A stretch of 64,000 bases of DNA from Myxococcota bacterium (GTDB lineage: Bacteria > Myxococcota_A > SURF-8 > G963663525): the NCBI GenBank assembly GCA_963676915.2, contig CAXXVK010000011.1:73805-137804 (forward strand), given 5' to 3'. The notes beneath the pieces are model-generated. The model saw only the letters and a program-made list of their open reading frames with translations, ran no database searches and was not told the DNA's origin. The stretch's first letter is position 1; each line of letters begins with the position of its first letter. The translations under genes and the position numbers were made by a program. Of this stretch, positions 9,782-22,394 are shown in pieces.

Positions 9782-11857
9782 TTACAGATCGTCATCCGTT
9801 TTTCTCTTTCTGTAACCTACGAGAAACAAAAGAATCGCTGCAAACAGGAACGACCCTGTAAGCCCTGACATTCGGCAGCCATCCGAGGTTTTCGAGGTTG
9901 TTCCTTCCGAATCCAGGTCGCCGCCGACCGCTTCATCGTCGGATGTCACTTGCGGAGCTACGGGAGGGCAGGCGGAGTTGTCCGCCGGGGTTTCCATACC
10001 ATCGGTGGGTTTGTCGCAGAAACCTTGAAGCTTTGCTTCCACTTGCAGATCGAAAGGTGGTTGGGTGGTATCCGTGGCTTTCAAAATGAGGGAAACCTGA
10101 AACGTTCTGGCCGGGGCGTCATCGGCGAAAAGCTCGTCGCGGTCAGGATTTTCCACGGTCAGACTGAAGCTGGTGGTGTCGCCATCGGTTTCGGGAGCGG
10201 ATAGGGATTCGTCCGCATTTTGCCATTGCATCGTGGATAGGTCGAGCGCGGTGCTTTGGACTTCGCCGTCGGGATTGCCGGTTTCATCTACCGTAGCTGC
10301 TTCGATTTCCAGGACTCCGGTCCCGTGAAACGCTGCCGTTTCCAGTGTTACATCCAATCGATAGTAGGGGAAAATCATCTCCGGGGCCGGGTTGCTGTTG
10401 GCCGATCGCAGATCGATGGCGAAATCCATTCGGGAAAACGGCCCTGGCGCGGAAGGATGCAAAACGACGGTTTCGTCTTGGTAGTTCATCGAGTCGGTCC
10501 AGGCCGACATTCTAGGACGGTAAGGGAAGCCGAATTCCACGAAACGGGCTTTGTCGAAGGGGCTGGCGTTCGATTGCAGCACCGTGCCTACCATGTGGGG
10601 ATTTTCGAACAGACGTTCCACAAGATCCTGAACGGAGAATTCCAGAACCTCTCCGACGATTTCCGGCATGGAGCGACCATAGGTGAAATCCCGGTCATCG
10701 ACGCCGTACAGGTGCTTGGTGGAGAGTCCTGTTTCCGGGTCGATACCGAAAACGGCCACGTCGTCCAGGCGTGTCCCACCGCTTTCGAATTCCACGGCGA
10801 GGTTATCCATCCATTTGTCGATGGTTTCGAGGTCTGGAACGATGTCCTGTCCGTCTTCGGTAACTTTCAAATACGAGGACCATTGCGCCAGTCCACTCAC
10901 TGCCCCCATGGAAATCTGACAGGGCATGGAACCGCCTACACCTTCTTTTCCGGTCATTCGCTGGCGATAGTTGGTGCTGCACTCGATGGAAACTTCTCCG
11001 TTTTCCACGATGATCGGATATTCATGGCCGAGGTTGTCGTACTCGGAAACACCGTATAGAGCGGCCAGAATCCCTTCGGAGGCGGACCCCAGGGAGGCGG
11101 CGTCGGTCATGTCCAGTAGAGACTCTGGATTCACTCCTGTGGCGTTTTCGTTCAATATGCCGGTCCAGTTCAGGTAATGGCTACCGTCGGAGTATTGGGA
11201 AATTTGTACTGCAAGTCCGAGATGCGGATTCTGATTTCCGAACGCGGTTTCGGCGTTTTCCTGTGATAGATATTCATCGTTTTCATATCCGTACAGCAGT
11301 GGATGAGCGAGGAAATCGGTAGGATAGCCATGGCGACCGTTGACGTTGAAAACCAATGCAGCTCCGGCACTGTCTACAAACGTGTGACGATTGTAGAGAC
11401 TTCCGGAGGGATTTTCCCAGTCCGGGATGATGTATTCCATGTGGCCGCGCCAGTCCTCGACGGCGTGGGCGGCGTACCCGAAAGCCCACGAAATTTCATG
11501 GATATCTTTTGCATTGGCGATCAGGTGCCGGGACCAGGCGAAGTAGCGGTCCGGGTCGGTGTATCGTCCCCAGCATTCGTTGGAAATTCTGCCGTTGTCT
11601 CCTCCACAGGCGACCGTGCAGAACGAGGCCATGAATTCGTCGGAAAGAATATACCAGACGTCGGGACCATAGGAGCCGTGAACCAACAATCCCAGATTGA
11701 ACGCCTCTTTCCAGCGGTGGGAAATACGGTCGTGCCCATGAACGGTCAACGCGCTGTGCACACCCGGTCCCCAGCCCCAAGCGGGTTTCGAATCGTCGAT
11801 AAGAAAAAACGACAACGTAACGAACAAAACCGAAAAAATGCGTAAAAATTGCTTCAT
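9782..11857 (-). CDS. Zinc-dependent phospholipase C / S1-P1 family secreted protein with C-terminal MYXO-CTERM-like anchor
   Basis: Signal peptide then WGPGVH, GSYGPD, FGYAAHAVEDWRGH (Zn ligands); C-terminus SDGC-linker-TM-RKRK. Confidence 0.75.
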   Translation of the reverse strand: MKQFLRIFSVLFVTLSFFLIDDSKPAWGWGPGVHSALTVHGHDRISHRWKEAFNLGLLVHGSYGPDVWYILSDEFMASFCTVACGGDNGRISNECWGRYTDPDRYFAWSRHLIANAKDIHEISWAFGYAAHAVEDWRGHMEYIIPDWENPSGSLYNRHTFVDSAGAALVFNVNGRHGYPTDFLAHPLLYGYENDEYLSQENAETAFGNQNPHLGLAVQISQYSDGSHYLNWTGILNENATGVNPESLLDMTDAASLGSASEGILAALYGVSEYDNLGHEYPIIVENGEVSIECSTNYRQRMTGKEGVGGSMPCQISMGAVSGLAQWSSYLKVTEDGQDIVPDLETIDKWMDNLAVEFESGGTRLDDVAVFGIDPETGLSTKHLYGVDDRDFTYGRSMPEIVGEVLEFSVQDLVERLFENPHMVGTVLQSNASPFDKARFVEFGFPYRPRMSAWTDSMNYQDETVVLHPSAPGPFSRMDFAIDLRSANSNPAPEMIFPYYRLDVTLETAAFHGTGVLEIEAATVDETGNPDGEVQSTALDLSTMQWQNADESLSAPETDGDTTSFSLTVENPDRDELFADDAPARTFQVSLILKATDTTQPPFDLQVEAKLQGFCDKPTDGMETPADNSACPPVAPQVTSDDEAVGGDLDSEGTTSKTSDGCRMSGLTGSFLFAAILLFLVGYRKRKTDDDL

Positions 11858-11942
11858 AGTGTCAACTCCCGAGAGGGGAAAGAACGGCTGTCGGTAGAAT
11901 GTTTTCCATGCCGGTTCTCTATACCATGTTTCTTTAGACGAC

Positions 11943-11969
11943 AAAAGGCCCGTCGTCATGACGGGCCTT
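11943..11969 (-). terminator. Terminator at end of dcw cluster
   Basis: AAGGCCCGTC/GACGGGCCTT stem with short T tract on the minus strand just after the ftsZ stop. Confidence 0.7.
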
Positions 11970-12000: not shown

Positions 12001-13356
12001 TTAGCGTTCCCGCTCGCGGAGGCGGATTTTCCGTCGTGCCGATTGAATGATGGCCTGGTCGTTGAAGATATCTTCTTCGTACAGGCTGTTGACGCGTGGC
12101 GTCTCGCGGCGCGGACGAGTTTCGCGGGGACGGATTTCACGCGGGGTGTCGGCACGGTCGAAGAAAGACGAAGGAAGCGACTGGGGCGGAGCCACCAGTT
12201 CTTCGTCGTCGGGCCTCGATTTCGGGGCATCGCCGCCCATCGGCAGGTCGTCCTCGAAAATTTCCACAGACGTGCTCGACGAGGCGCGAAGATCGTCGCC
12301 TACCTGCAGTTTCCGACGACGACGAGGAGAGCGTCGGCCACGCGTCGGAGTTTCCGAATCGTTGGCTTCGTCCGGGAAACCGGTTGCGATAACGGTAACT
12401 TGCACACTGTCTTCCATGCTGTCGTCCACCACGTATCCGAAGATAACCGAGGCTTGCGGATCGGCGCTTTGCTGAATGTAGGTAACGGCTTCGTCCACTT
12501 CGGAGGCTCGAAGCTGGGTGGAACCGGTAACGTTGATGAGCACGCCGCGAGCACCCTCGATGGAGAGATCGTCGAGCAGCGGGGAGGAGATCGCCATCCG
12601 GGCGGCGTCCATGGCGCGGTTGGTGCCACTGCCTAGACCGGTGCCCATGATCGCCATTCCCATGTTGGACATGATCGATTTCACGTCGGCGAAGTCCACG
12701 TTGACGTAGCCTGCCGTGGTGATGAGATCGGAGATGCCGCGCACCGCACCGACGAGAACGTTATCCGCTTCTTTGAAGGCTTCGACGAAGCCCAGGTTTC
12801 CGCCGTCGATATCCAAAAGTTTCTGGTTGGGAATCACGACCAGGGTATTGACGCAGGATTTGAGTTCCTTGACGCCTTCCAGTGCCGTGTTCATCCTTTT
12901 CTGACCTTCGAAATTGAACGGCTTGGTAACGACACCGACGGTCAGGATGCCCATGTCCATCGCTTTTTGTGCGATGACCGGGGCCGCGCCCGTGCCGGTT
13001 CCGCCGCCCATACCCGCCGTGACGAACAGCATGTCCACGCCTTGGATCATCTCTTCGATCACCGCCAGCGATTCTTCTGCCGCTTTCTGGCCGACTTTGG
13101 GATAACCGCCAGCGCCAAGGCCGCGTGTCAGCGATTCACCCAATTGGATCTGCAGGGCCACTTTCGAACGTTCCAGCGCCTGCACGTCGGTGTTGGCCAC
13201 GATAAACGACACGTTTTTCACATCGGCTTCCATCATCGACGTAACCGCGTTGCTCCCGGCGCCGCCCGCACCCAGAACCGCCAGTTTCGCCGAGCGGAAG
13301 CTCAGTTCGTCCGCCATGTTGAATTTGATTTCGAAATCGTCTCTGCTTTCCGTCAT
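12001..13356 (-). CDS. ftsZ: Cell division protein FtsZ
   Basis: [36 protein letters not shown]7 loop NVDFAD; ATG 13356 after AAGGAGGA. Confidence 0.98.
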
Positions 13357-13419
13357 TCTTTCCTCCTTTGGGCTCCCTGACCCGAAATTATCCGTACATC
13401 GGAAATCAAACAAGTTCGT

Positions 13420-14479
13420 TCAGTTTTTTTCTTCCATTCCGGCTATGAACGGTCCGCCCACCGTCCACGTCGGAAAAACTGCAACATTCTTTTCAACTCT
13501 TTGAATTTCTTTCAATTTCGCGAGAGGCTGGTTGATTCCCAGCAACGTCACGCGAACGTTGTCTCCGTTTTCACAGGCAATACGGCGACTCCGAAGATTG
13601 GTGTTGTTCACCAGCGTCATCAGCAGGGCTTCCACCTGCTCCAGCGCATTTTCCCGTTGGGGACCGGAGCGAACCGTCAGACAAAGGGTTTCGCTTTGCT
13701 CCAAGGGGATTTTCCACGAGGAACTGCGCGATATCGCTTTGAAAAAGGCATTGCGGGGAGCTAGTCCGCCCGCTGCCGAAGCCGTGGATACCGCGATGGA
13801 AGCTTTCTCGAAAACTTCCTCGGAGAGTTCGTCTGCCTGTTCCGCCTGATCTTCTTCCAAAAACAGGTCGCAGACGGTTTCGATCATCTGCGCCATTTCG
13901 TCGTCGCATTTTTTGAAAATCGTATAGGTTCCCGCTTCAAGAACGCTTTCTTCGAGGTCGGCTCCCGTGATGCGAATCACGCCGTTGCAGGCGCTTTCCA
14001 ACTCGTCGATGGCTTTATTCGCCGTTTCCTGCCGATCTTTTCCTTCGAAATCGAAAGGAAGTCCGACCACGGCTACGGTGGCGATACCCCGGCGTCTGGC
14101 CTCGGAGGCGATGACCGGCAGAGCACCGCTGGCGGTTTCACCGCCCAGACCGCCCACGAGGACGAGTTTTGCGCAATCCACGCAGTTTCAAACCCCATCG
14201 TCTGCGGGAATCCCGAGCACACAACGCACCGTAGCGGCCATCGATACGTCCCCGGTTGACCGGCGTTCCCTGGCCGAACGGCAGACGGCTCAACGGTCGT
14301 AAATGGGAAGATTCCAACAGGTCGAGATCGGTGTCCAACGCCAGCAACGAGACTTGGTCCGGCAGGCGTTCGCGAACCTTTGCCAGAACGTTCAGACCCG
14401 CTTCTCCGACCCCGAAAACACCGACCTGGCAGGCTTGTAGCCTTTGCTGGATGTCTTCTTTCATTTCATTTTTCAACAT
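13420..14479 (-). CDS. Divergent FtsZ/tubulin-family protein (one apparent +1 frameshift at ~14167-14170)
   Basis: Two ORF-track fragments join on removal of one base from a 4-base run: VGVFGVGEAGLN, ALDTD, LVLVGGLGGETASG, PFDFEG, VRVTLLG. ~352 aa; RBS AAGGAG. Confidence 0.85.
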
Positions 14480-14509
14480 AATCAGATGCTCCTTGGCGGC
14501 GGTAAATTC

Positions 14510-15712
14510 TCAGGGTCCGAAAAATTTCGTGATTTTGTTCCAAAGGCTGCGTTTGCCGATTTTCGTGGCACCGTGTCGAGCGCCGTACATCACGAGTCCT
14601 ACGCTCGTAGAAAACTTCGGCTTGGATACCATGTCCGTAAGTCCGGTGAATCCTTTGGGTTTCGCGACACGTACCGGCATATCGAACATTTCTTCGGCCA
14701 GCGTTTCGATGCCTTTGAGCGAGGTGCAGCCTCCCGTAAGGACCACTCCCGCTCCGATGTAGCCTGCCATGCCGGAGGCTTCGATGTTGCTGATGATGGC
14801 CGAAAAAATCTCTTCCATGCGCGCTTCGATGATGTCGCATAACGCCATACGGCTGATCAGGTGACTGGCCCCCACGCCGACCCTTGGAACGTCCACGGTG
14901 TCGGTGTTGTTGACCAACTCGGCCAGGGCGCAGCCTTCGTGTTCCTTGATGCGTTCGGCGTCTTCGGGTGGTGTGCGCAGGCTGACGGCGATGTCGTTGG
15001 AAATCATGTCCCCGCCGGAAGCGATGACTCCGGCATGGAGAAGCGCGCCCTTGGAGTAAATCAGGATGTCCGAGGTTCCCGCGCCGATATCCACGAAGAT
15101 GCAGCCCAGGTCTTTTTCCGGAGGCGTCAACGTGGCGTAGGAAGCGGCCAGCGGATCGAAAATCATATCGCAGACATTCACCCCGGCCTTGTTGCAGCAG
15201 CGCTCGATATTCTGCATGGCGGTCGCGGCGGCGGTGATGATGTGAACCTGAGTTTTCAGCCGCACGCCGCTGATGCCCAGTGGCACTTTGACTCCGGCCT
15301 GGTCGTCCACGATGTATTCCTGGACTTTGGTGTGGAGAACTTTGCGGTCCATGGGGATCGGCACGGCATTGGCCTGTTCCAATACGCGGTCGATGTCGCT
15401 CTGTTCGATTTCCTTGCCTTTGATGGGCACGACGCCATCGCTGTTTTCACCCTTGATATGCGGGCCGCTGATACCGACGAAAACGTCCGAAATCTGTACC
15501 CCGGCCATCAGTTCGGCGTCTTCCACCGAACTGCGGATGGAATGCACCGTTTCCTCGATGTTCGTGATGCTTCCACTGGACATACCCGAGGATTTCTGCG
15601 TTCCCACGCCGATGACTTCAACTTCGCCGTCTTCTTTTACTTCGCTGGCAATACAGCGGGTATCGGATGTTCCGATATCGAGACTGGCGATGATTTCTCC
15701 TTTTTTGGCCAT
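14510..15712 (-). CDS. ftsA: Cell division protein FtsA
   Basis: SLDIGTS, VDIGAGTSD, GVVLTGG, STSVGL; ATG 15712. Confidence 0.96.
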   Translation of the reverse strand: MAKKGEIIASLDIGTSDTRCIASEVKEDGEVEVIGVGTQKSSGMSSGSITNIEETVHSIRSSVEDAELMAGVQISDVFVGISGPHIKGENSDGVVPIKGKEIEQSDIDRVLEQANAVPIPMDRKVLHTKVQEYIVDDQAGVKVPLGISGVRLKTQVHIITAAATAMQNIERCCNKAGVNVCDMIFDPLAASYATLTPPEKDLGCIFVDIGAGTSDILIYSKGALLHAGVIASGGDMISNDIAVSLRTPPEDAERIKEHEGCALAELVNNTDTVDVPRVGVGASHLISRMALCDIIEARMEEIFSAIISNIEASGMAGYIGAGVVLTGGCTSLKGIETLAEEMFDMPVRVAKPKGFTGLTDMVSKPKFSTSVGLVMYGARHGATKIGKRSLWNKITKFFGP

Positions 15713-15714
15713 GG

Positions 15715-16630
15715 TTACCTTCCCATCTCCTCTTGTCCGAAATCCTCGGGCTTCGGAGCCTGGAACCGTATGGAGATTTTTTCCGAATGGTTTCTGTTGT
15801 TCAAGTTGATGCGGAGCGGCTTGCGTTCTCCCTGGAAAAGGTCCGTCCAGTTTTTCCTGAAGACGGTCGAGTTTGCGTTGCCAGTTGTCGTCCCCGACGA
15901 TCACTTTGGTGGGGATCGATCCGACGAGCAGTGCAAATCCCGTCGTTTCCAGAATCACTTCGTGCAGGTCGGCTCTTTTCGACAAAGGATGCTCACGATA
16001 AAGCCGAATCAGGTCGAAAGCGTTCGTAACGTTCTCGCTTACCTTTTTCTTTTCTTCTTCTTTGGCGTTGTTTTTATTCTTTTGGTTTTCTTTTTGATCT
16101 TTCGTCTCGAAATCCGCCGGTTTCAACCCACGGATCAAGGTGTATTCGTCAATGGAATCCAAATCGGCGAGTTTGAAAGGTTCGAGGTCGGTATTGAGAT
16201 ACACGTAGGCTCCCAGGTCAACCACGGCCACGACCTTTTGTTCGGTGACGGCGATGGTCAGCGAACGGTTCAGCCAGTTTCGCGTAATGTCGGCCTGTGC
16301 CACCCACGGAAGTTTCTCGACCTTTCGGGCGGCGGGTTTGGTGTCCATCCCGACGAGATCCATTCCCTGGGTTATTCCCGATTGGAAGATCACAGCATCA
16401 TTGGGAGTTTTTTCACTGCCGGTGACATGGATTTGTTGGAGTTCGATCAGTCCGAACGACGAAACCGGAACGATTCCTTCCCAGGCCAGTGCGGCATAGA
16501 CGAAGACGGACGCCAGGATCACGGTTCCCAGGATTTTTCCGATGTTTCGCGAGGGTGGCGCGACTTCATTCGGATGTTCCAGCTTCCGGTTTTTTCTCAG
16601 CAGAATGTTTGCCGTTCTCTGCGGAGCCAT
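15715..16630 (-). CDS. ftsQ: Cell division protein FtsQ (frameshift near 15855)
   Basis: TM segment, POTRA domain (IHVTGS..LPWVAQADITR..LTIAVTE). Removing one base restores the C-terminus ...LRINLNNRNHSEKISIRF...EEMGR* with TAA at 15715-15717. Confidence 0.85.
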
Positions 16631-17605: not shown

Positions 17606-19002
17606 GGCGCTTTCCCTTCTTTTTCCTTCAGCATCGAAAGAACGTCCAGTCCCGTCCGGTGGATATCTCCCGGCCACCAAGGGTCAACAGCAGTTCACCC
17701 GGATCCCAGCGTTTCCACGGCCCGGCGTCCGGCCTTGTCCCGGTCGCCCACGTATTCGACCTGAACGCCCCTGATTCTTGATTCGCTCGACGAGCGTCTG
17801 GCTGTCGATTCCTTCGATGGGCGGTTCGCTGGCCGCGTAAATATCCGTAACGATCAACCGATCGACGTTTTCGAAAGACTGGGCGAATTCGTCCATCAGG
17901 TCGCGGGTTCGTGTGTAGCGGTGTGGCTGGAACAGCACCGTAATCGCCCCGTCGAAGCATTCTCTTGCAGCTTTAAGGGTGGCGCGAATTTCCGAGGGAT
18001 GGTGCCCATAGTCGTCCACGACCGTTACACCGCCAGCTCGACCCTTGATCTGGAACCGGCGTTCCACACCATCGAAAGTTGCGAGGGCTTCGGTCAGAGT
18101 CGCCACGGGAATGTCCAGTTCGAATCCCACGATAAAAGCCGCCAGGGCGTTCAATACGTTGTGGTGTCCCGGTAAGGGAACCTGTACACGGCCAAGTTCC
18201 TTGTCGCCGTATACGATGTCGAATTCCATGCAGAGATTCCGGGCGCGAATGCGGGTGGCGCGGAAATCGTTTGCCTTCTTCGAGGCCGTAGGTAACGTTT
18301 CGACCCTTGATACGTCCGCTGATTTCCCGGACGATCGGATCGTCTCCGCATAATACGTTCACGCCGTAAAATGGAATGCTGCTTGCGAAACTGACGAAGG
18401 CGTCTTTCTAACGCGTCGAAAGAGCCATAATAATCCAGGTGTTCTCTGTCGATGTTGGTGACGACGGTCAGCATTGGTGTGAGTCGCAGGAAACTGCCGT
18501 CCGACTCGTCGGCTTCGGCGACCAGCATCGAACCTTCACCCAGGCGGGCATTGGTGGCCGTAGCTCGTCAGTCGTCCTCCCACGAAAAAGGTGGGGGTCC
18601 ATTCCGGCGGCGGAAAGCAGCCAGGCGATCAAGCTGGTGGTAGTGGTTTTGCCGTGCGATCCTGCCACGGCGATACCTTCCTTGAGGCGCATCAGTTCGG
18701 CCAGCATCTGGGCTCGCGGAATCACGGGGATTCCCCCGGCGGATGGGCCTCGGCCAGTTCGGGGTTGTCCGAACGGAATGGCCGAAGAACAGACCAACAC
18801 GTTGGCGTCGCCAAGGTTTGACGAATCGTGCTTGAAATTGTAGCCGAACGCCGAGTTGCTCCAGTCGTTTCGTGTAGCGCGACTTTTTGAGGTCGGACCC
18901 CGAAACCTTGAACCGCAATCCCGTAAGCACTTCGGCCAGTCCGCACATGCCGACTCCGCCGATGCCTACGAAATGCACGTTTTTGAAGCGTTTTAGCAAC
19001 AT
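17602..19002 (-). CDS. murC: UDP-N-acetylmuramate--L-alanine ligase (multiple apparent frameshifts)
   Basis: [52 protein letters not shown] spread over several frames. Confidence 0.92.
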
Positions 19003-19058: not shown

Positions 19059-20148
19059 TTATTTTCGCACCGATTCTTCAAGCAATTGAGTCACGTTCGC
19101 GGCAGCCTTGGGATGGGCGGCGCTTTGGACCCGTCCCGACATGTTCGCGATTTCTTCCGGATTTTCGATTCGTTCTCGTAAAAAACGCACCAATTCGGTC
19201 GCGTCGATATCCTTTTGCTCCCGTACCCAGGCCGCACCGGCTTCAACCAGTTCCGCTGCGTTGTGTACCTGATGGTTGTCCGCTGCGCCCGGAAACGGGA
19301 TCAGCAGGCTGGGACGTCCCGCGACCGCCAGTTCCGCACAGGTCGCCGCACCGGAACGCGCCACGACAAGGTGACACCACTTCAAAGCACCGGCCATGTC
19401 ATCGATAAATGCCACCGCTTCGGCGTTCAACCCGGTTTCACGGTATCGTTCGGCGACGGCTTCAAGGTCGTGTTGTCCGGTCTGGTGGCGGATCGTCAAG
19501 CGGTCTTTCATCGGTTTCAGGTCCGGGGCGGCGTCTCGAAACAGGTTGTTGATGAACGTTGCACCCTGGCTTCCACCGAGGATCAGAACCTGCAAAGGTT
19601 CTGAAATTTCACGAGTTTCCTGAGAGTCGGAGAGGAACTGGTCCAAAAACTCCTGGCGCACCGGATTGCCGGTGAGGACGGTTTTTTTTCGCATCGAACC
19701 AGCGCGCTGCGTGGCCGAAAGATACCGCCACTTTTTTGGCGAAACGACCGAGTTGGCGGTTGGTCATGCCCGGTACCGAGTTGGGTTCCAGCAGCACCAG
19801 CGGTTTTCTCAGAAACCAGGCGGCCAGACAGACCGGCCCCGCGGCAAAACTTCCCAGGCTGAGCACGACATCGGGACGGAAACGGAGGACGATCCACAGT
19901 CCTTGCAAAAACGCCAGAGGAAGACGCAGCAGCGAAAGCAGCGTTTTGAACAGTCCGACGCGCTTCAGACCGCTGGCCGCCGTGTATTTCACCGGAAGGT
20001 TCTGTTCGGGCAGAATGCGCGATTCGATGCCGTCGCGAGTACCGACGAACAGCACTTCATTGCCTTCCTTTTTCAGCCATTGTTTGGCTACGGCAATCCC
20101 CGGGAAAAGATGGCCACCGGTTTTTCCACCAGCCAGCAACAGTCTCAT
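19059..20148 (-). CDS. murG: Undecaprenyl-PP-MurNAc-pentapeptide GlcNAc transferase (frameshift in T8 run ~19682-19689)
   Basis: GGKTGGHLFPG, EPNSVPG, TGNPVR, GGSQGA, RSGA, HQVHNA. Confidence 0.94.
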
Positions 20149-21301: not shown

Positions 21302-22394
21302 CTAGAGGTTGAATTTCAGCTTCAGGCTCGCAAGGCCGACAATGGCCAAGATGATCGAGATAATCCAAAGCCTCACCACAACCTTGGGCTCCGCCCAGCC
21401 CTTCAATTCAAGACTGTGGTGAAATGGGGCCATTCTAAAAATACGTTTGCCCGTCAATTTGAAACTTCCAACTTGCAAAACCACGGAAATCACTTCGAAA
21501 ACGAAAATTCCACCGACAACCACCATCAACAGTTCCTGCTTGGTCAAAAAAGCCAGAACGCCCAAAGCCGAACCGATAGTCAGGCTACCTACATCCCCCA
21601 TAAAAACCTGTGCGGGGTAGGTGTTGTACCAGAGAAAAGCCAGGCAGGCACCGAAGAGTGCCCCGGCGAACACGGCTAGCTCGCCAGCGCCCGGAACGTA
21701 AACCACGTTGAGGAACTGAGCGAACTTGATGTTACCTGCCAAATACGCGAGAATCATGAATACGATCGTGGTGGCCATGGCCGGTCCCCAAAGCCAGACC
21801 GTCAAGGCCGTCCGTGAGGTTTACGGCGTTGGCCGTTCCGGCGATGACAATGGCCGCAAACGGGACATACATCCACAATGGTATGTTAGTAATCGGATTC
21901 CAGACGAACGGCACCTGGAGATCGTTGGCGAAGTCGGTCAGGGTAAACAGCAGCAGTGCGGCGACGGCGGTAATCAGCAACTCCAGTCCCAGGCGCAGTT
22001 TGCCCGAGATTCCCTTGGAGTTGTTTTTCGAGACTTTCATCCAGTCGTCCCACAGACCCAACACGCCGAACGAACCTGTGACCAGCATAGCGATCCAGGT
22101 GTAGGCATTGTCCAACCGTGCCCAGAGAAACGTAGAGCACAGCAAGGAAGCCAGGATCAACGTTCCGCCCATTGTCGGGGTTCCGGCTTTGGAAAGATGA
22201 GACTGCGGGCCGTCGTCTCGAATGGCCTGCCCGTACTGTCGGCGCTTCAGGTCGCGAATCATCACCGGGGAAAGCAGGAATGTAATCAACAACGCCGTCA
22301 GTGCTCCGCCAGCCGTGCGAACCGTAATATACTGGAAGACGCGAAGCGCCGTTTCATCCCCACCGAACAGTTGATATAGAATATGGTAAAGCAT
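21302..22394 (-). CDS. mraY: Phospho-N-acetylmuramoyl-pentapeptide transferase (frameshift ~21790)
   Basis: [35 protein letters not shown]. Confidence 0.95.

What the first reader, a model, noticed from the sequence alone, without database searches (positions are those of the whole stretch)
13420..14479. Second, catalytically degenerate FtsZ/tubulin-family gene inside the dcw operon between ftsA and ftsZ
Seen: the ORF track splits this gene in two, but removing one base from the 4-base run at 14167-14170 gives a single ~352-aa ORF with its own AAGGAG RBS. It aligns along the whole fold with the neighbouring FtsZ: GVGEAGLN vs [11 protein letters not shown] vs NTD, GGLGGETASG vs [16 protein letters not shown] vs PFNFEG, VRVTLLG vs VQVTVIATG. 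The T3 loop RGLGAGG is replaced (NRGRIDG), the catalytic T7 loop NVDFAD is absent (QAEQADEL), and there is no long linker or FtsA-binding tail. Known: T7 acidic residues activate GTP hydrolysis in the adjacent subunit. The bacterial FtsZ paralogs I know (rhizobial ftsZ2, magnetosome FtsZm, BtubA/B, TubZ) do not sit in this position. Inference: a co-transcribed pseudo-GTPase that could cap, nucleate or co-polymerise with FtsZ filaments, i.e. a two-component Z-ring. Best candidate for an undescribed system in this window.
Basis: partly seen in the sequence, partly recalled or inferred. Interest (0 to 1): 0.88.

Follow-up and report, generated by a model that had tools for sequence, protein, structure and literature searches.

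The report
Dead FtsZ copy between ftsA and ftsZ
An uncultured myxobacterial lineage carries, between its cell-division genes ftsA and ftsZ, a second FtsZ-like gene that has lost the GTP-handling motifs yet is kept by selection; the break seen in this window is most likely a sequencing error.

Summary
ORFs 14479..14138 and 14181..13420 (minus strand) are one ~352-aa gene, here called X. An intact 353-aa ortholog (67% identity) lies between ftsA and ftsZ in the only congeneric genome, and its reading frame passes through exactly the 4-base run at 14167-14170. A ~94%-identical metagenome contig lacks one base at that run. At least five one-base homopolymer insertions break mraY, murG, murC, ftsQ and X within 8 kb of the window, so the frameshift is most likely an assembly error.

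X belongs to the Tubulin/FtsZ superfamily (Pfam 47.9 bits) but is not an FtsZ equivalog (82 bits against a 295 cut-off). It keeps 32 of 42 highly conserved FtsZ columns. The ten lost include the nucleotide loops T1, T2, T3, T4 and T6, and the T7 loop is absent. dN/dS is 0.21 (0.15-0.28), against 0.05 for ftsZ and ftsA.

X was found only in this family-level lineage: 2 of 10 genomes of the order, and no other relative among 1.84 billion representatives. A role as a non-catalytic partner of FtsZ is inference only; the one complex prediction gave no answer. The same two genomes also have an FtsZ tail lacking the P-x-F motif and a ZipA-like protein.

The parts
13420..14479 (-). Gene X: a ~352-aa degenerate FtsZ paralog, split in this assembly into 14479..14168 (residues 1-104) and 14166..13423 (residues 105-352), with the stop codon at 13420-13422
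   Evidence: Ortholog P0002. Pfam and NCBIfam.
14167..14170 (-). AAAA run (TTTT on +) holding the one-base excess that breaks the frame
   Evidence: The contig of run X2 has one base left out at 14167. The Logan contigs of run X1 end at 14169 and restart at 14168.
14489..14494 (-). AAGGAG ribosome-binding site, 9 nt upstream of the ATG (14477-14479)
   Evidence: Read.
14390..14413 (-). T1 loop GVGEAGLN, with Glu in place of the conserved Gly
   Evidence: column G, 91% among FtsZ rows, is E in both orthologs.
14168..14230 (-). Remodelled helix H3, GALCARDSRRRWGLKLRGLRK. Net charge +7 against -4 in FtsZ; H3 (residues 82-99) is 89% identical between the two orthologs
14125..14154 (-). T4 'tubulin signature' GGLGGETASG in place of GGGTGTG (third Gly is Glu/Asp; a further Gly is Ala)
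13816..13851 (-). Acidic, poorly conserved stretch in the place of the T7 loop and H8 (no NxDxxD)
   Evidence: 4 of 12 residues identical between orthologs.
13465..13479 (-). VFPTW in the 36-aa C-terminal tail (VFPAW in the ortholog)
   Evidence: In the AF2 model residues 325-343 have pLDDT under 50.
12001..13359 (-). Canonical ftsZ (452 aa from the ATG that matches the ortholog's start), 60 nt downstream of X
   Evidence: TIGR00065 at 400.5 bits, cut-off 295.2.
12037..12048 (-). IQSA in the FtsZ C-terminal peptide, where relatives have IPSF or IPTF
14510..15712 (-). ftsA (400 aa by comparison with G001), 30 nt upstream of X
15718..16630 (-). ftsQ, broken by an extra A in the A5 run at 15851-15855. 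This creates the spurious 706-aa ftsQ-ftsA ORF

Best explanation
X is one real gene, a lineage-specific paralog of ftsZ of about 352 aa, inserted between ftsA and ftsZ. It is most likely co-transcribed with them (gaps of 30 and 60 nt).

Shown:
- X is intact in both relatives where it could be read, and it evolves under purifying selection.
- It is colinear with FtsZ over both domains.
- Its losses include the glycine-rich phosphate loops T1 and T4 (each now holds an acidic residue), T2, a shortened T3 and the T6 Asn. The T7 catalytic loop is absent.

Inferred:
- The frame break in this window is an assembly or sequencing error.
- X arose by local duplication of ftsZ, changed in a burst, and was then constrained.
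- X neither binds or hydrolyses GTP nor activates hydrolysis in a neighbouring subunit.
- X works as a non-catalytic FtsZ-fold regulator of the Z-ring.

My preferred mechanism is as follows. X binds FtsZ through its conserved nucleotide-side face and its charge-reversed basic helix H3. It does not bind through its unconstrained T7 side. X would then behave like a natural 'bottom-interface mutant', capping or decorating filaments rather than forming a two-sided co-polymer.
For: Identity and integrity:
- P0002 is an uninterrupted 353-aa ORF between ftsA and ftsZ in G001.
- A 10.9-kb contig of run X2, ~94% identical and from another study, spans the gene and lacks one base at 14167.
- Contigs of the probable source run X1 (depth 2-2.9) end at 14169 and restart at 14168. 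I read this as what reads disagreeing between 3 and 4 T would give.
- 5 of 5 frame breaks examined against G001 are +1 insertions in runs of 4-8 identical bases: mraY 21786-21789, murG 19682-19689, murC 17768-17771, ftsQ 15851-15855 and X. Runs of 4 or more make up 7.5% of the window.

Selection:
- dN/dS window vs G001 is 0.21 (bootstrap 0.15-0.28, 352 codons). ftsZ gives 0.050 and ftsA 0.048.
- Against X2, 23 changed codons are synonymous and 12 are not. This uses 39 of the 40 differences shown; 38 more were not shown.

Family:
- Pfam Tubulin 47.9 bits, cut-off 33.
- phmmer aligns X residues 19-314 to solved FtsZ chains.
- The AF2 model has pLDDT 86.1, and its best Foldseek hits are all FtsZ (E 2e-21, TM 0.71-0.79 on the target).

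Degeneracy:
- X keeps 32 of 42 columns that are at least 85% conserved in 79 FtsZ-family rows.
- The ten lost include G>E in T1, N>D in T2, G>N and a deleted G in T3, G>D/E and G>A in T4, and N>G in T6.
- The T7 region is 4 of 12 identical between orthologs, against 70% overall. H3 is 16 of 18 identical, with net charge +7 against -4 in FtsZ.

Origin:
- A tree holding X with the order's FtsZ clade is not rejected (p-AU 0.754, lnL 12 higher than the free quick tree).

Capping logic:
- Passages of PMC8936486 say that bottom-interface mutants are toxic and that MciZ caps filaments that grow from the bottom end.
Against: No result shows that X touches FtsZ. No RNA data were available.

The nucleotide-side face that I propose as the binding face is itself heavily altered and lacks the GTP that forms part of the normal interface.

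Only two full sequences plus one partly seen contig exist, so the conservation mapping is weak.

The C-domain homology taken alone is faint (hhalign E 0.0039, probability 8.7%). The confident AF2 model depends on FtsZ rows in the alignment; with X rows only, pLDDT is 41.6.

No raw reads were seen. X1 was laid as contigs at depth 2-3, so a true frameshift allele in this population is not excluded.

Promoter and terminator scans were at chance level, so co-transcription rests on spacing alone.
Confidence: 0.5

Rival explanations
1. Division of labour after duplication. X keeps a tether-binding tail (VFP-x-W) and attaches to FtsZ filaments. The catalytic FtsZ of this lineage has lost the P and F of its own C-terminal peptide. 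X would then be an adaptor between FtsZ polymers and FtsA or the lineage-specific ZipA-like protein.
For: The FtsZ tails of the two X-bearing genomes read ..[11 protein letters not shown]... All 89 other complete FtsZ ORFs in the fetched loci hold [ILVMTA]-P-x-[FYW] in their last 30 residues; L005 and L014 are one genome.

X has a low-confidence 36-aa tail with VFP(T/A)W and an identical GMEEKN end.

A ZipA_C protein with an N-terminal hydrophobic stretch (a likely membrane anchor; no topology prediction was run) occurs in G000 and G001. It was found in none of 19 other relatives searched and in 3 of 301 genomes of the phylum. No SepF hit was found in G000, which is 90.8% complete.
Against: The X tail is less conserved than the protein as a whole (20 of 36 residues against 70%).

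The motif match is short and was noticed after the fact.

FtsZ keeps a conserved LPSSFF stretch in its linker that might serve as a displaced peptide.

The third ZipA_C-bearing genome, G261, has a canonical DIPTFF tail and no second FtsZ match, so ZipA_C does not go with loss of the tail motif.

No binding test of X with FtsA or with the ZipA-like protein could be run.
Confidence: 0.12
2. X kept the FtsZ fold but took on a job that does not involve binding FtsZ filaments, for example as a scaffold for another divisome or envelope protein. It stays in the operon only because of where it arose.
For: Both longitudinal faces are strongly altered. The stem branch is extremely long (9.8 changes per column). 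A new conserved basic helix has appeared. By language-model features the nearest clusters are ~342-aa Tubulin-only proteins of Nitrososphaerota (score 0.95). Passages of PMC3684127 report that the Nitrosopumilus FtsZ homolog, which has a variant AGKAGSA motif, did not polymerise in yeast.
Against: Retention exactly between ftsA and ftsZ in both genomes, with 30-65 nt gaps, suggests dosage coupling to the Z-ring genes. The Atlas hit is a lead without an alignment.
Confidence: 0.2
3. The frameshift is real, and X is a freshly inactivated pseudogene in this strain.
For: The assembled sequence has four T at 14167-14170, and the X1 contigs match the window elsewhere without differences.
Against: The X1 contigs do not bridge the run, and depth there is about 2. 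Four essential neighbours carry the same kind of +1 homopolymer insertion. Substitutions against the 94%-identical relative are mostly synonymous in the repaired frame.
Confidence: 0.1
4. X is made by programmed +1 ribosomal frameshifting, or by transcriptional slippage, at A-AAA-C.
For: tRNA-Lys could re-pair one base downstream on AAAA (inference from the sequence).
Against: Both relatives encode the protein in one frame. The run is short. The same kind of break occurs in mraY, murG, murC and ftsQ.
Confidence: 0.02

Closest known systems
Canonical bacterial FtsZ (TIGR00065; Pfam PF00091 + PF12327)
   Same: Two-domain fold and colinear alignment (residues 19-314 to solved FtsZ chains). Conserved PFxFEG, H7 F..D and many core glycines. 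Located in the dcw cluster.
   Different: 82 bits against a 295.2 cut-off. No PF12327 hit. T1, T3, T4 and T6 are degenerate, T7 is absent, H3 is charge-reversed, and a 36-aa tail replaces the ~100-aa linker plus C-terminal peptide.
Truncated FtsZ paralogs of Hyphomicrobiales (FtsZ1 and FtsZ3 of Agrobacterium; Aubry et al., bioRxiv 10.1101/2025.09.29.679267; abstract and Introduction read)
   Same: A lineage-restricted ftsZ duplicate that lacks the long C-terminal parts and is proposed to tune division. FtsZ1 overexpression blocks division.
   Different: The paper calls those duplicates FtsZ GTPases. [quoted passage not shown] X lies between ftsA and ftsZ and has lost the GTP motifs.
Thaumarchaeal FtsZ homolog (Nitrosopumilus Nmar_1262; PMC3684127, passages read)
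   Same: An FtsZ-family protein with a non-canonical signature motif (AGKAGSA there, GG[DE]TASG here) that did not polymerise in yeast. Similar length. Nearest clusters by language-model features.
   Different: It is archaeal and not encoded beside a functional ftsZ. No alignment-based kinship to X was shown; in the tree the position of X is unresolved.
FtsZ filament cappers and inhibitors (MciZ, SulA, MipZ) and engineered bottom-interface FtsZ mutants (PMC8936486 passages; PMC9897490 search listing only)
   Same: This is the working analogy only: a protein that occupies one filament end and cannot propagate the polymer.
   Different: The natural cappers named are not FtsZ-fold proteins. Binding by X is untested.
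Plant ARC3, an FtsZ-like domain protein that inhibits chloroplast Z-ring assembly (recalled; no call made)
   Same: An FtsZ-derived, non-GTPase regulator of FtsZ.
   Different: It is eukaryotic, fused to other domains, and of independent origin.
FtsZl-1 and FtsZl-2 families (Makarova and Koonin 2010, PMC2875224; abstract read)
   Same: Divergent members of the FtsZ-tubulin superfamily in bacteria.
   Different: Those are linked to vWA, GTPase and OmpA-family genes for membrane remodelling. X sits in the dcw operon, and its best matches are FtsZ proper.

Membership tests
Tubulin/FtsZ superfamily (Pfam PF00091) | Score above Pfam's gathering cut-off (33 bits) | tested here: met
   P0002 scores 47.9 bits, E 2.6e-12. 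The window's C piece scores 43.1 bits.
FtsZ proper (NCBIfam TIGR00065 equivalog) | Score above the curated cut-off of 295.2 bits | tested here: not met
   P0002 scores 82 bits. The neighbouring ftsZ scores 400.5 bits.
FtsZ proper | Tubulin signature GGGTG(S/T)G in T4 and a glycine-rich T1 loop | tested here: not met
   X has GG(D/E)TASG and G-x-G-E-A-G-x-N. The columns are 97%, 92% and 91% Gly in 79 FtsZ rows.
FtsZ proper | T7 synergy loop NxDxxD | tested here: not met
   There is no such motif. The region is acidic and 4 of 12 identical between orthologs.
FtsZ proper | FtsZ C-terminal domain (PF12327) | tested here: inconclusive
   No HMM hit even at E 10, and hhalign gives E 0.0039, probability 8.7%, in register. 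The fold is present in the AF2 model (Foldseek TM 0.71-0.79), but that model relies on FtsZ rows.
FtsZ proper | Long linker plus conserved C-terminal peptide (hydrophobic-P-x-F) | tested here: inconclusive
   X has a 36-aa tail with VFP(T/A)W. Its function is unknown.
Truncated Hyphomicrobiales-type FtsZ duplicates | GTPase domain retained (inferred from the paper's term 'FtsZ GTPase'); such duplicates are reported outside the dcw operon | tested here: not met
   X's motifs are degenerate and the gene lies between ftsA and ftsZ.
FtsZl-1 / FtsZl-2 | Genomic link to vWA, GTPase and OmpA-family genes | tested here: not met
   The context here is mraY-murG-murC-ddl-ftsQ-ftsA-X-ftsZ. The family's features were taken from the abstract only.
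Decaying duplicate (pseudogene) | dN/dS near 1 and no intact orthologs | tested here: not met
   dN/dS is 0.21 (0.15-0.28). The gene is intact in G001 and in the X2 contig.

The most novel reading that the evidence does not exclude
This myxobacterial lineage has split the Z-ring protein into two co-expressed parts. One is a polymerising GTPase (FtsZ) whose own tether-binding peptide has lost its Pro and Phe. The other is a nucleotide-free FtsZ-fold subunit (X) that rides on or caps the filaments and links them, through its own tail or its basic H3 face, to FtsA and to a ZipA-like anchor gained by the same lineage. This would be a natural two-component bacterial Z-ring, comparable in logic to chloroplast FtsZ1/FtsZ2 or to alpha/beta-tubulin.
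Probability: 0.12. Interest if true: 0.8.

Novelty: new variant of a known kind. Interest (0 to 1): 0.55.

Why it matters
FtsZ duplicates are known, but the bacterial ones I found in print are called FtsZ GTPases and are reported outside the dcw operon. A selected, nucleotide-dead FtsZ fold encoded between ftsA and ftsZ would be a natural experiment in how a filament subunit turns into a regulator of its parent polymer. It would resemble the engineered one-faced 'capper' mutants used to work out FtsZ polarity.

The same lineage also has an altered FtsZ tail and a ZipA-like anchor that is rare in its phylum. This points to a rewired Z-ring tether that could be tested with purified proteins.

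The practical lesson is that this assembly carries systematic homopolymer insertions. Split genes in it should not be read as pseudogenes.

Tried and rejected
Complex prediction of G001 FtsZ residues 15-345 with X: verdict 'no answer' (score 0.00, mark 0.32), and the controls were not folded. This is not evidence either way.

AF2 with X rows only: pLDDT 41.6, uninformative. The confident model therefore leans on the FtsZ rows.

Tree of 46 rows: X sits on a 9.8-change stem and its place is unresolved. Only the AU test was usable, and it merely fails to reject a local origin.

Searches that found no further X relatives:
- The search for related loci in genome contigs with P0002: none.
- The search for related loci in metagenome contigs: one locus, L013. 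It is a different 205-aa N-domain-only FtsZ-like protein with intact motifs, not an X ortholog.
- The search for homologous proteins: 4 hits among 4834 candidates, and only P0002 is an ortholog.

No RNA holder was listed, so nothing can be said on expression. Run X4 laid nothing and X3 only fragments.

Promoter and terminator scan: 1 and 4 sites against 0.9 and 4.6 expected, which is chance level.

Programmed frameshifting was considered and rejected (see the rival explanations).

ESM Atlas: a lead only, with no structure search possible.

Literature: searches (listings of the top 10-20 only) showed no description of an ftsZ paralog between ftsA and ftsZ or of a bacterial nucleotide-dead FtsZ. 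I did not read beyond the listings except for the four papers cited. No supplements were opened; the supplements of Aubry et al. may list duplicates in other phyla.
Full report
WHAT IS THERE

On the minus strand the window holds ftsQ, ftsA, two overlapping ORFs (14479..14138, 113 aa; 14181..13420, 253 aa) and ftsZ. The two ORFs overlap in different frames at an AAAA run, which reads TTTT at 14167-14170 on the + strand. An AAGGAG lies 9 nt before the ATG at 14479. I call the gene X.

ONE GENE, INTACT IN RELATIVES

The only congeneric genome held (G001) has an uninterrupted 353-aa ORF, P0002, that is 67-74% identical to the two pieces. It also lies between ftsA (33 nt upstream) and ftsZ (65 nt downstream). 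Its sequence runs ...RRRWGLKLRGLKR-LVLVGGLGGDTASG.

THE FRAMESHIFT IS MOST LIKELY AN ARTEFACT

Three lines of evidence point the same way.

1. A 10.9-kb contig of run X2, from another study and with 83 differences in 1301 bases, spans the whole stretch. Its only indel is one base left out at 14167.
2. In run X1, which holds 93% of the sampled words and is probably the source, depth is 2-2.9. Its contigs end at 14169 and restart at 14168. I read this as what a k-mer assembler would produce if the few reads disagree between three and four T. No contig bridges the run.
3. tblastn of G001 ORFs against the window, followed by DNA alignments, shows that every frame break I examined (5 of 5) is a one-base insertion in a homopolymer of the window:
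   - mraY, G4 at 21786-21789
   - murG, A8 at 19682-19689
   - murC, G4 at 17768-17771, with further frame changes upstream
   - ftsQ, A5 at 15851-15855
   - X, A4 at 14167-14170

Runs of four or more bases make up 7.5% of the window. Five inactivating hits in essential wall and division genes within 8 kb are not credible as biology. The 706-aa 'ftsQ-ftsA fusion' ORF is one of these artefacts; in G001 the two genes are separate. I did not see raw reads, so a real allele is not excluded. I give it about 0.1.

SELECTION

Nei-Gojobori dN/dS between the window and G001 is 0.12 for codons 1-104 and 0.26 for the remaining 248 codons. Overall it is 0.21 (bootstrap 0.15-0.28). The values for ftsZ and ftsA are 0.050 and 0.048, at dS 0.7-1.3.

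Against the X2 contig, 35 codons of the C part differ: 23 synonymously and 12 not. This uses 39 of the 40 differences the tool showed; 38 more were not shown.

X is therefore constrained, though about four times less than ftsZ.

FAMILY AND FOLD

- P0002 passes Pfam Tubulin (47.9 bits, cut-off 33) but shows no FtsZ_C hit. It scores 82 bits on the FtsZ equivalog model, whose cut-off is 295.2.
- phmmer aligns residues 19-314 to solved FtsZ chains at E about 1e-16.
- X is 31% identical to its own neighbour FtsZ over 198 residues.
- An AF2 model built with 79 FtsZ-family rows has pLDDT 86.1 and pTM 0.83. Its best Foldseek matches are all FtsZ (E 2e-21; TM on the target 0.71-0.79).
- Two caveats apply. 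With X rows alone the model is poor (pLDDT 41.6). The C domain alone gives only hhalign E 0.0039, although in the right register.

WHAT IS LOST AND WHAT IS KEPT

Of the 42 columns that are at least 85% conserved in 79 FtsZ-family rows, each X ortholog keeps 32. The losses, pooled over the two orthologs (each ortholog lacks ten), are:
- T1: Gly to Glu
- T2: Asn to Asp, and Thr to Ala in G001 only
- T3: Gly to Asn, plus a deleted Gly
- T4: Gly to Asp/Glu, and Gly to Ala
- one Leu and one Thr near S5
- T6: Asn to Gly
- one T7 Asp, in the window's copy

No NxDxxD motif exists. In its place is an acidic stretch that is only 4 of 12 identical between the orthologs, the least conserved part of the protein (overall identity 70%).

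The most conserved parts are S2, H10, H9, S10, S4, the T4/H4 and T5 regions, and helix H3. H3 is 16 of 18 identical and has turned from acidic (-4 in FtsZ) to strongly basic (+7).

That acidic side chains in both phosphate loops exclude GTP is my inference from what is known of FtsZ mutants (recalled). It was not tested here.

DISTRIBUTION AND ORIGIN

X-level matches occur in 2 of 10 genomes of the order, namely G000 and G001, the only members of their family held. None occurs in the 39 other relatives searched, which show only their FtsZ.

Among 1.84 billion representatives, only P0002 and the window's own piece pass E 1e-30. The next hit is at 1.4e-22, the level of ordinary FtsZ.

An order-level relative titled 'Myxococcota bacterium' has ftsQ, ftsA and ftsZ with a 75-nt gap and no X.

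In a 46-row tree X sits on a stem of 9.8 changes per column and cannot be placed. A tree that holds X with the order's FtsZ clade has a higher likelihood and is not rejected (p-AU 0.754). A local duplication, followed by a burst of change and then constraint, is the simplest history. It is inferred, not shown.

HOW IT MOST LIKELY WORKS

The shown facts are position, constraint, fold and dead motifs. From these I infer a non-catalytic FtsZ-fold regulator made together with FtsA and FtsZ.

The T7 side is unconstrained, while the nucleotide side and H3 are conserved. I therefore favour one-sided binding to FtsZ (end capping or lateral decoration) over a true co-polymer.

[quoted passage not shown] X resembles such a one-faced subunit. 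This step is analogy. The single complex job gave no answer. My confidence in the whole statement is 0.5: about 0.9 for identity and integrity, and about 0.4-0.5 for FtsZ binding.

LINEAGE-SPECIFIC COMPANIONS

The FtsZ of the two X-bearing genomes ends ..[13 protein letters not shown]... Four order-level and six phylum-level relatives have I-P-(S/T)-(F/Y) or (T/V/A)-P-(T/A)-F at the homologous place. All 89 other complete FtsZ ORFs in my loci hold [ILVMTA]-P-x-[FYW] in their last 30 residues (L005 and L014 are one genome).

A ZipA_C protein occurs in G000 and G001. It has an N-terminal hydrophobic stretch that is a likely membrane anchor (no topology prediction was run), a charged linker and the C domain. 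It was found in none of 19 other relatives and in 3 of 301 genomes of the phylum. The third carrier, G261, has a normal DIPTFF tail and a single FtsZ.

G000 shows no SepF or MinC_C hit and has a ZapA (the genome is 90.8% complete).

These coincidences feed the boldest reading, a split Z-ring protein with X as adaptor. Against it stand three points: X's tail is less conserved than the rest of the protein, the motif match is short and post hoc, and a conserved LPSSFF in the FtsZ linker could be a displaced peptide.

COMPARISON WITH WHAT IS KNOWN

Bacterial ftsZ duplicates are documented. [quoted passage not shown] The paper calls them FtsZ GTPases, and FtsZ1 blocks division when overexpressed (abstract and Introduction).

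A nucleotide-motif-degenerate FtsZ homolog that did not polymerise in yeast is known from Nitrosopumilus (passages). FtsZl families have a different gene context (abstract). ARC3 is recalled only.

X fails the membership tests for FtsZ proper and for the Hyphomicrobiales type. It passes only the superfamily test.

In five literature searches (listings only) I saw no dcw-embedded dead FtsZ paralog. I rate it a new variant of a known kind.

VERDICT

Interest is 0.55. This is a real, selected pseudo-GTPase copy of FtsZ in a striking position, but it is known from only two genomes and one contig of an uncultured lineage, and its function is unproven.

Noticed in passing
window 15851-15855, 17768-17771, 19682-19689, 21786-21789 (and 14167-14170): Relative to G001, the assembly carries one-base insertions in homopolymers that break ftsQ, murC, murG and mraY. 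The 706-aa ORF 16630..14510 that looks like an ftsQ-ftsA fusion is such an artefact. murC shows further frame changes between about 17770 and 19000.
   Followed up: partly
window 12037-12048 (minus strand); L002 FtsZ tail: The FtsZ C-terminal peptide reads IQSA where relatives have IPSF or IPTF. 89 of 89 other complete FtsZ ORFs in the fetched loci keep hydrophobic-P-x-aromatic. A conserved LPSSFF lies further up in the linker.
   Followed up: partly
G000 contig C34 163-1320 (L095); G001 C4 (L096 3844-5193): A ZipA-like protein with an N-terminal hydrophobic stretch (a likely membrane anchor), a charged linker and a ZipA_C domain (78 bits). It is present in the two X-bearing genomes, in none of 19 other relatives, and in 3 of 301 genomes of the phylum. 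In both genomes it is followed by a ~1030-aa secreted protein.
   Followed up: partly
L100 (G261 C191): In the third ZipA_C-bearing genome of the phylum, ftsZ (373 aa, DIPTFF tail) is preceded directly by an ftsQ-like ORF, with no ftsA between them in the 4-kb locus.
   Followed up: no
L013 700-1317: A metagenome contig encodes a 205-aa N-domain-only FtsZ-like protein with intact GGGG, GAGG and SGGTGTG motifs. It is not in a dcw context.
   Followed up: no
window 9782-11959 (minus strand): A 725-aa ORF just downstream of ftsZ is conserved at 70% in G001 (708 aa) and has no NCBIfam hit at E 1e-10. It has hydrophobic stretches near both ends; I ran no signal-peptide or topology prediction.
   Followed up: no
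window 13679: The X1 contigs also break between 13678 and 13680. This suggests read disagreement at a single base in the low-depth source run.
   Followed up: no
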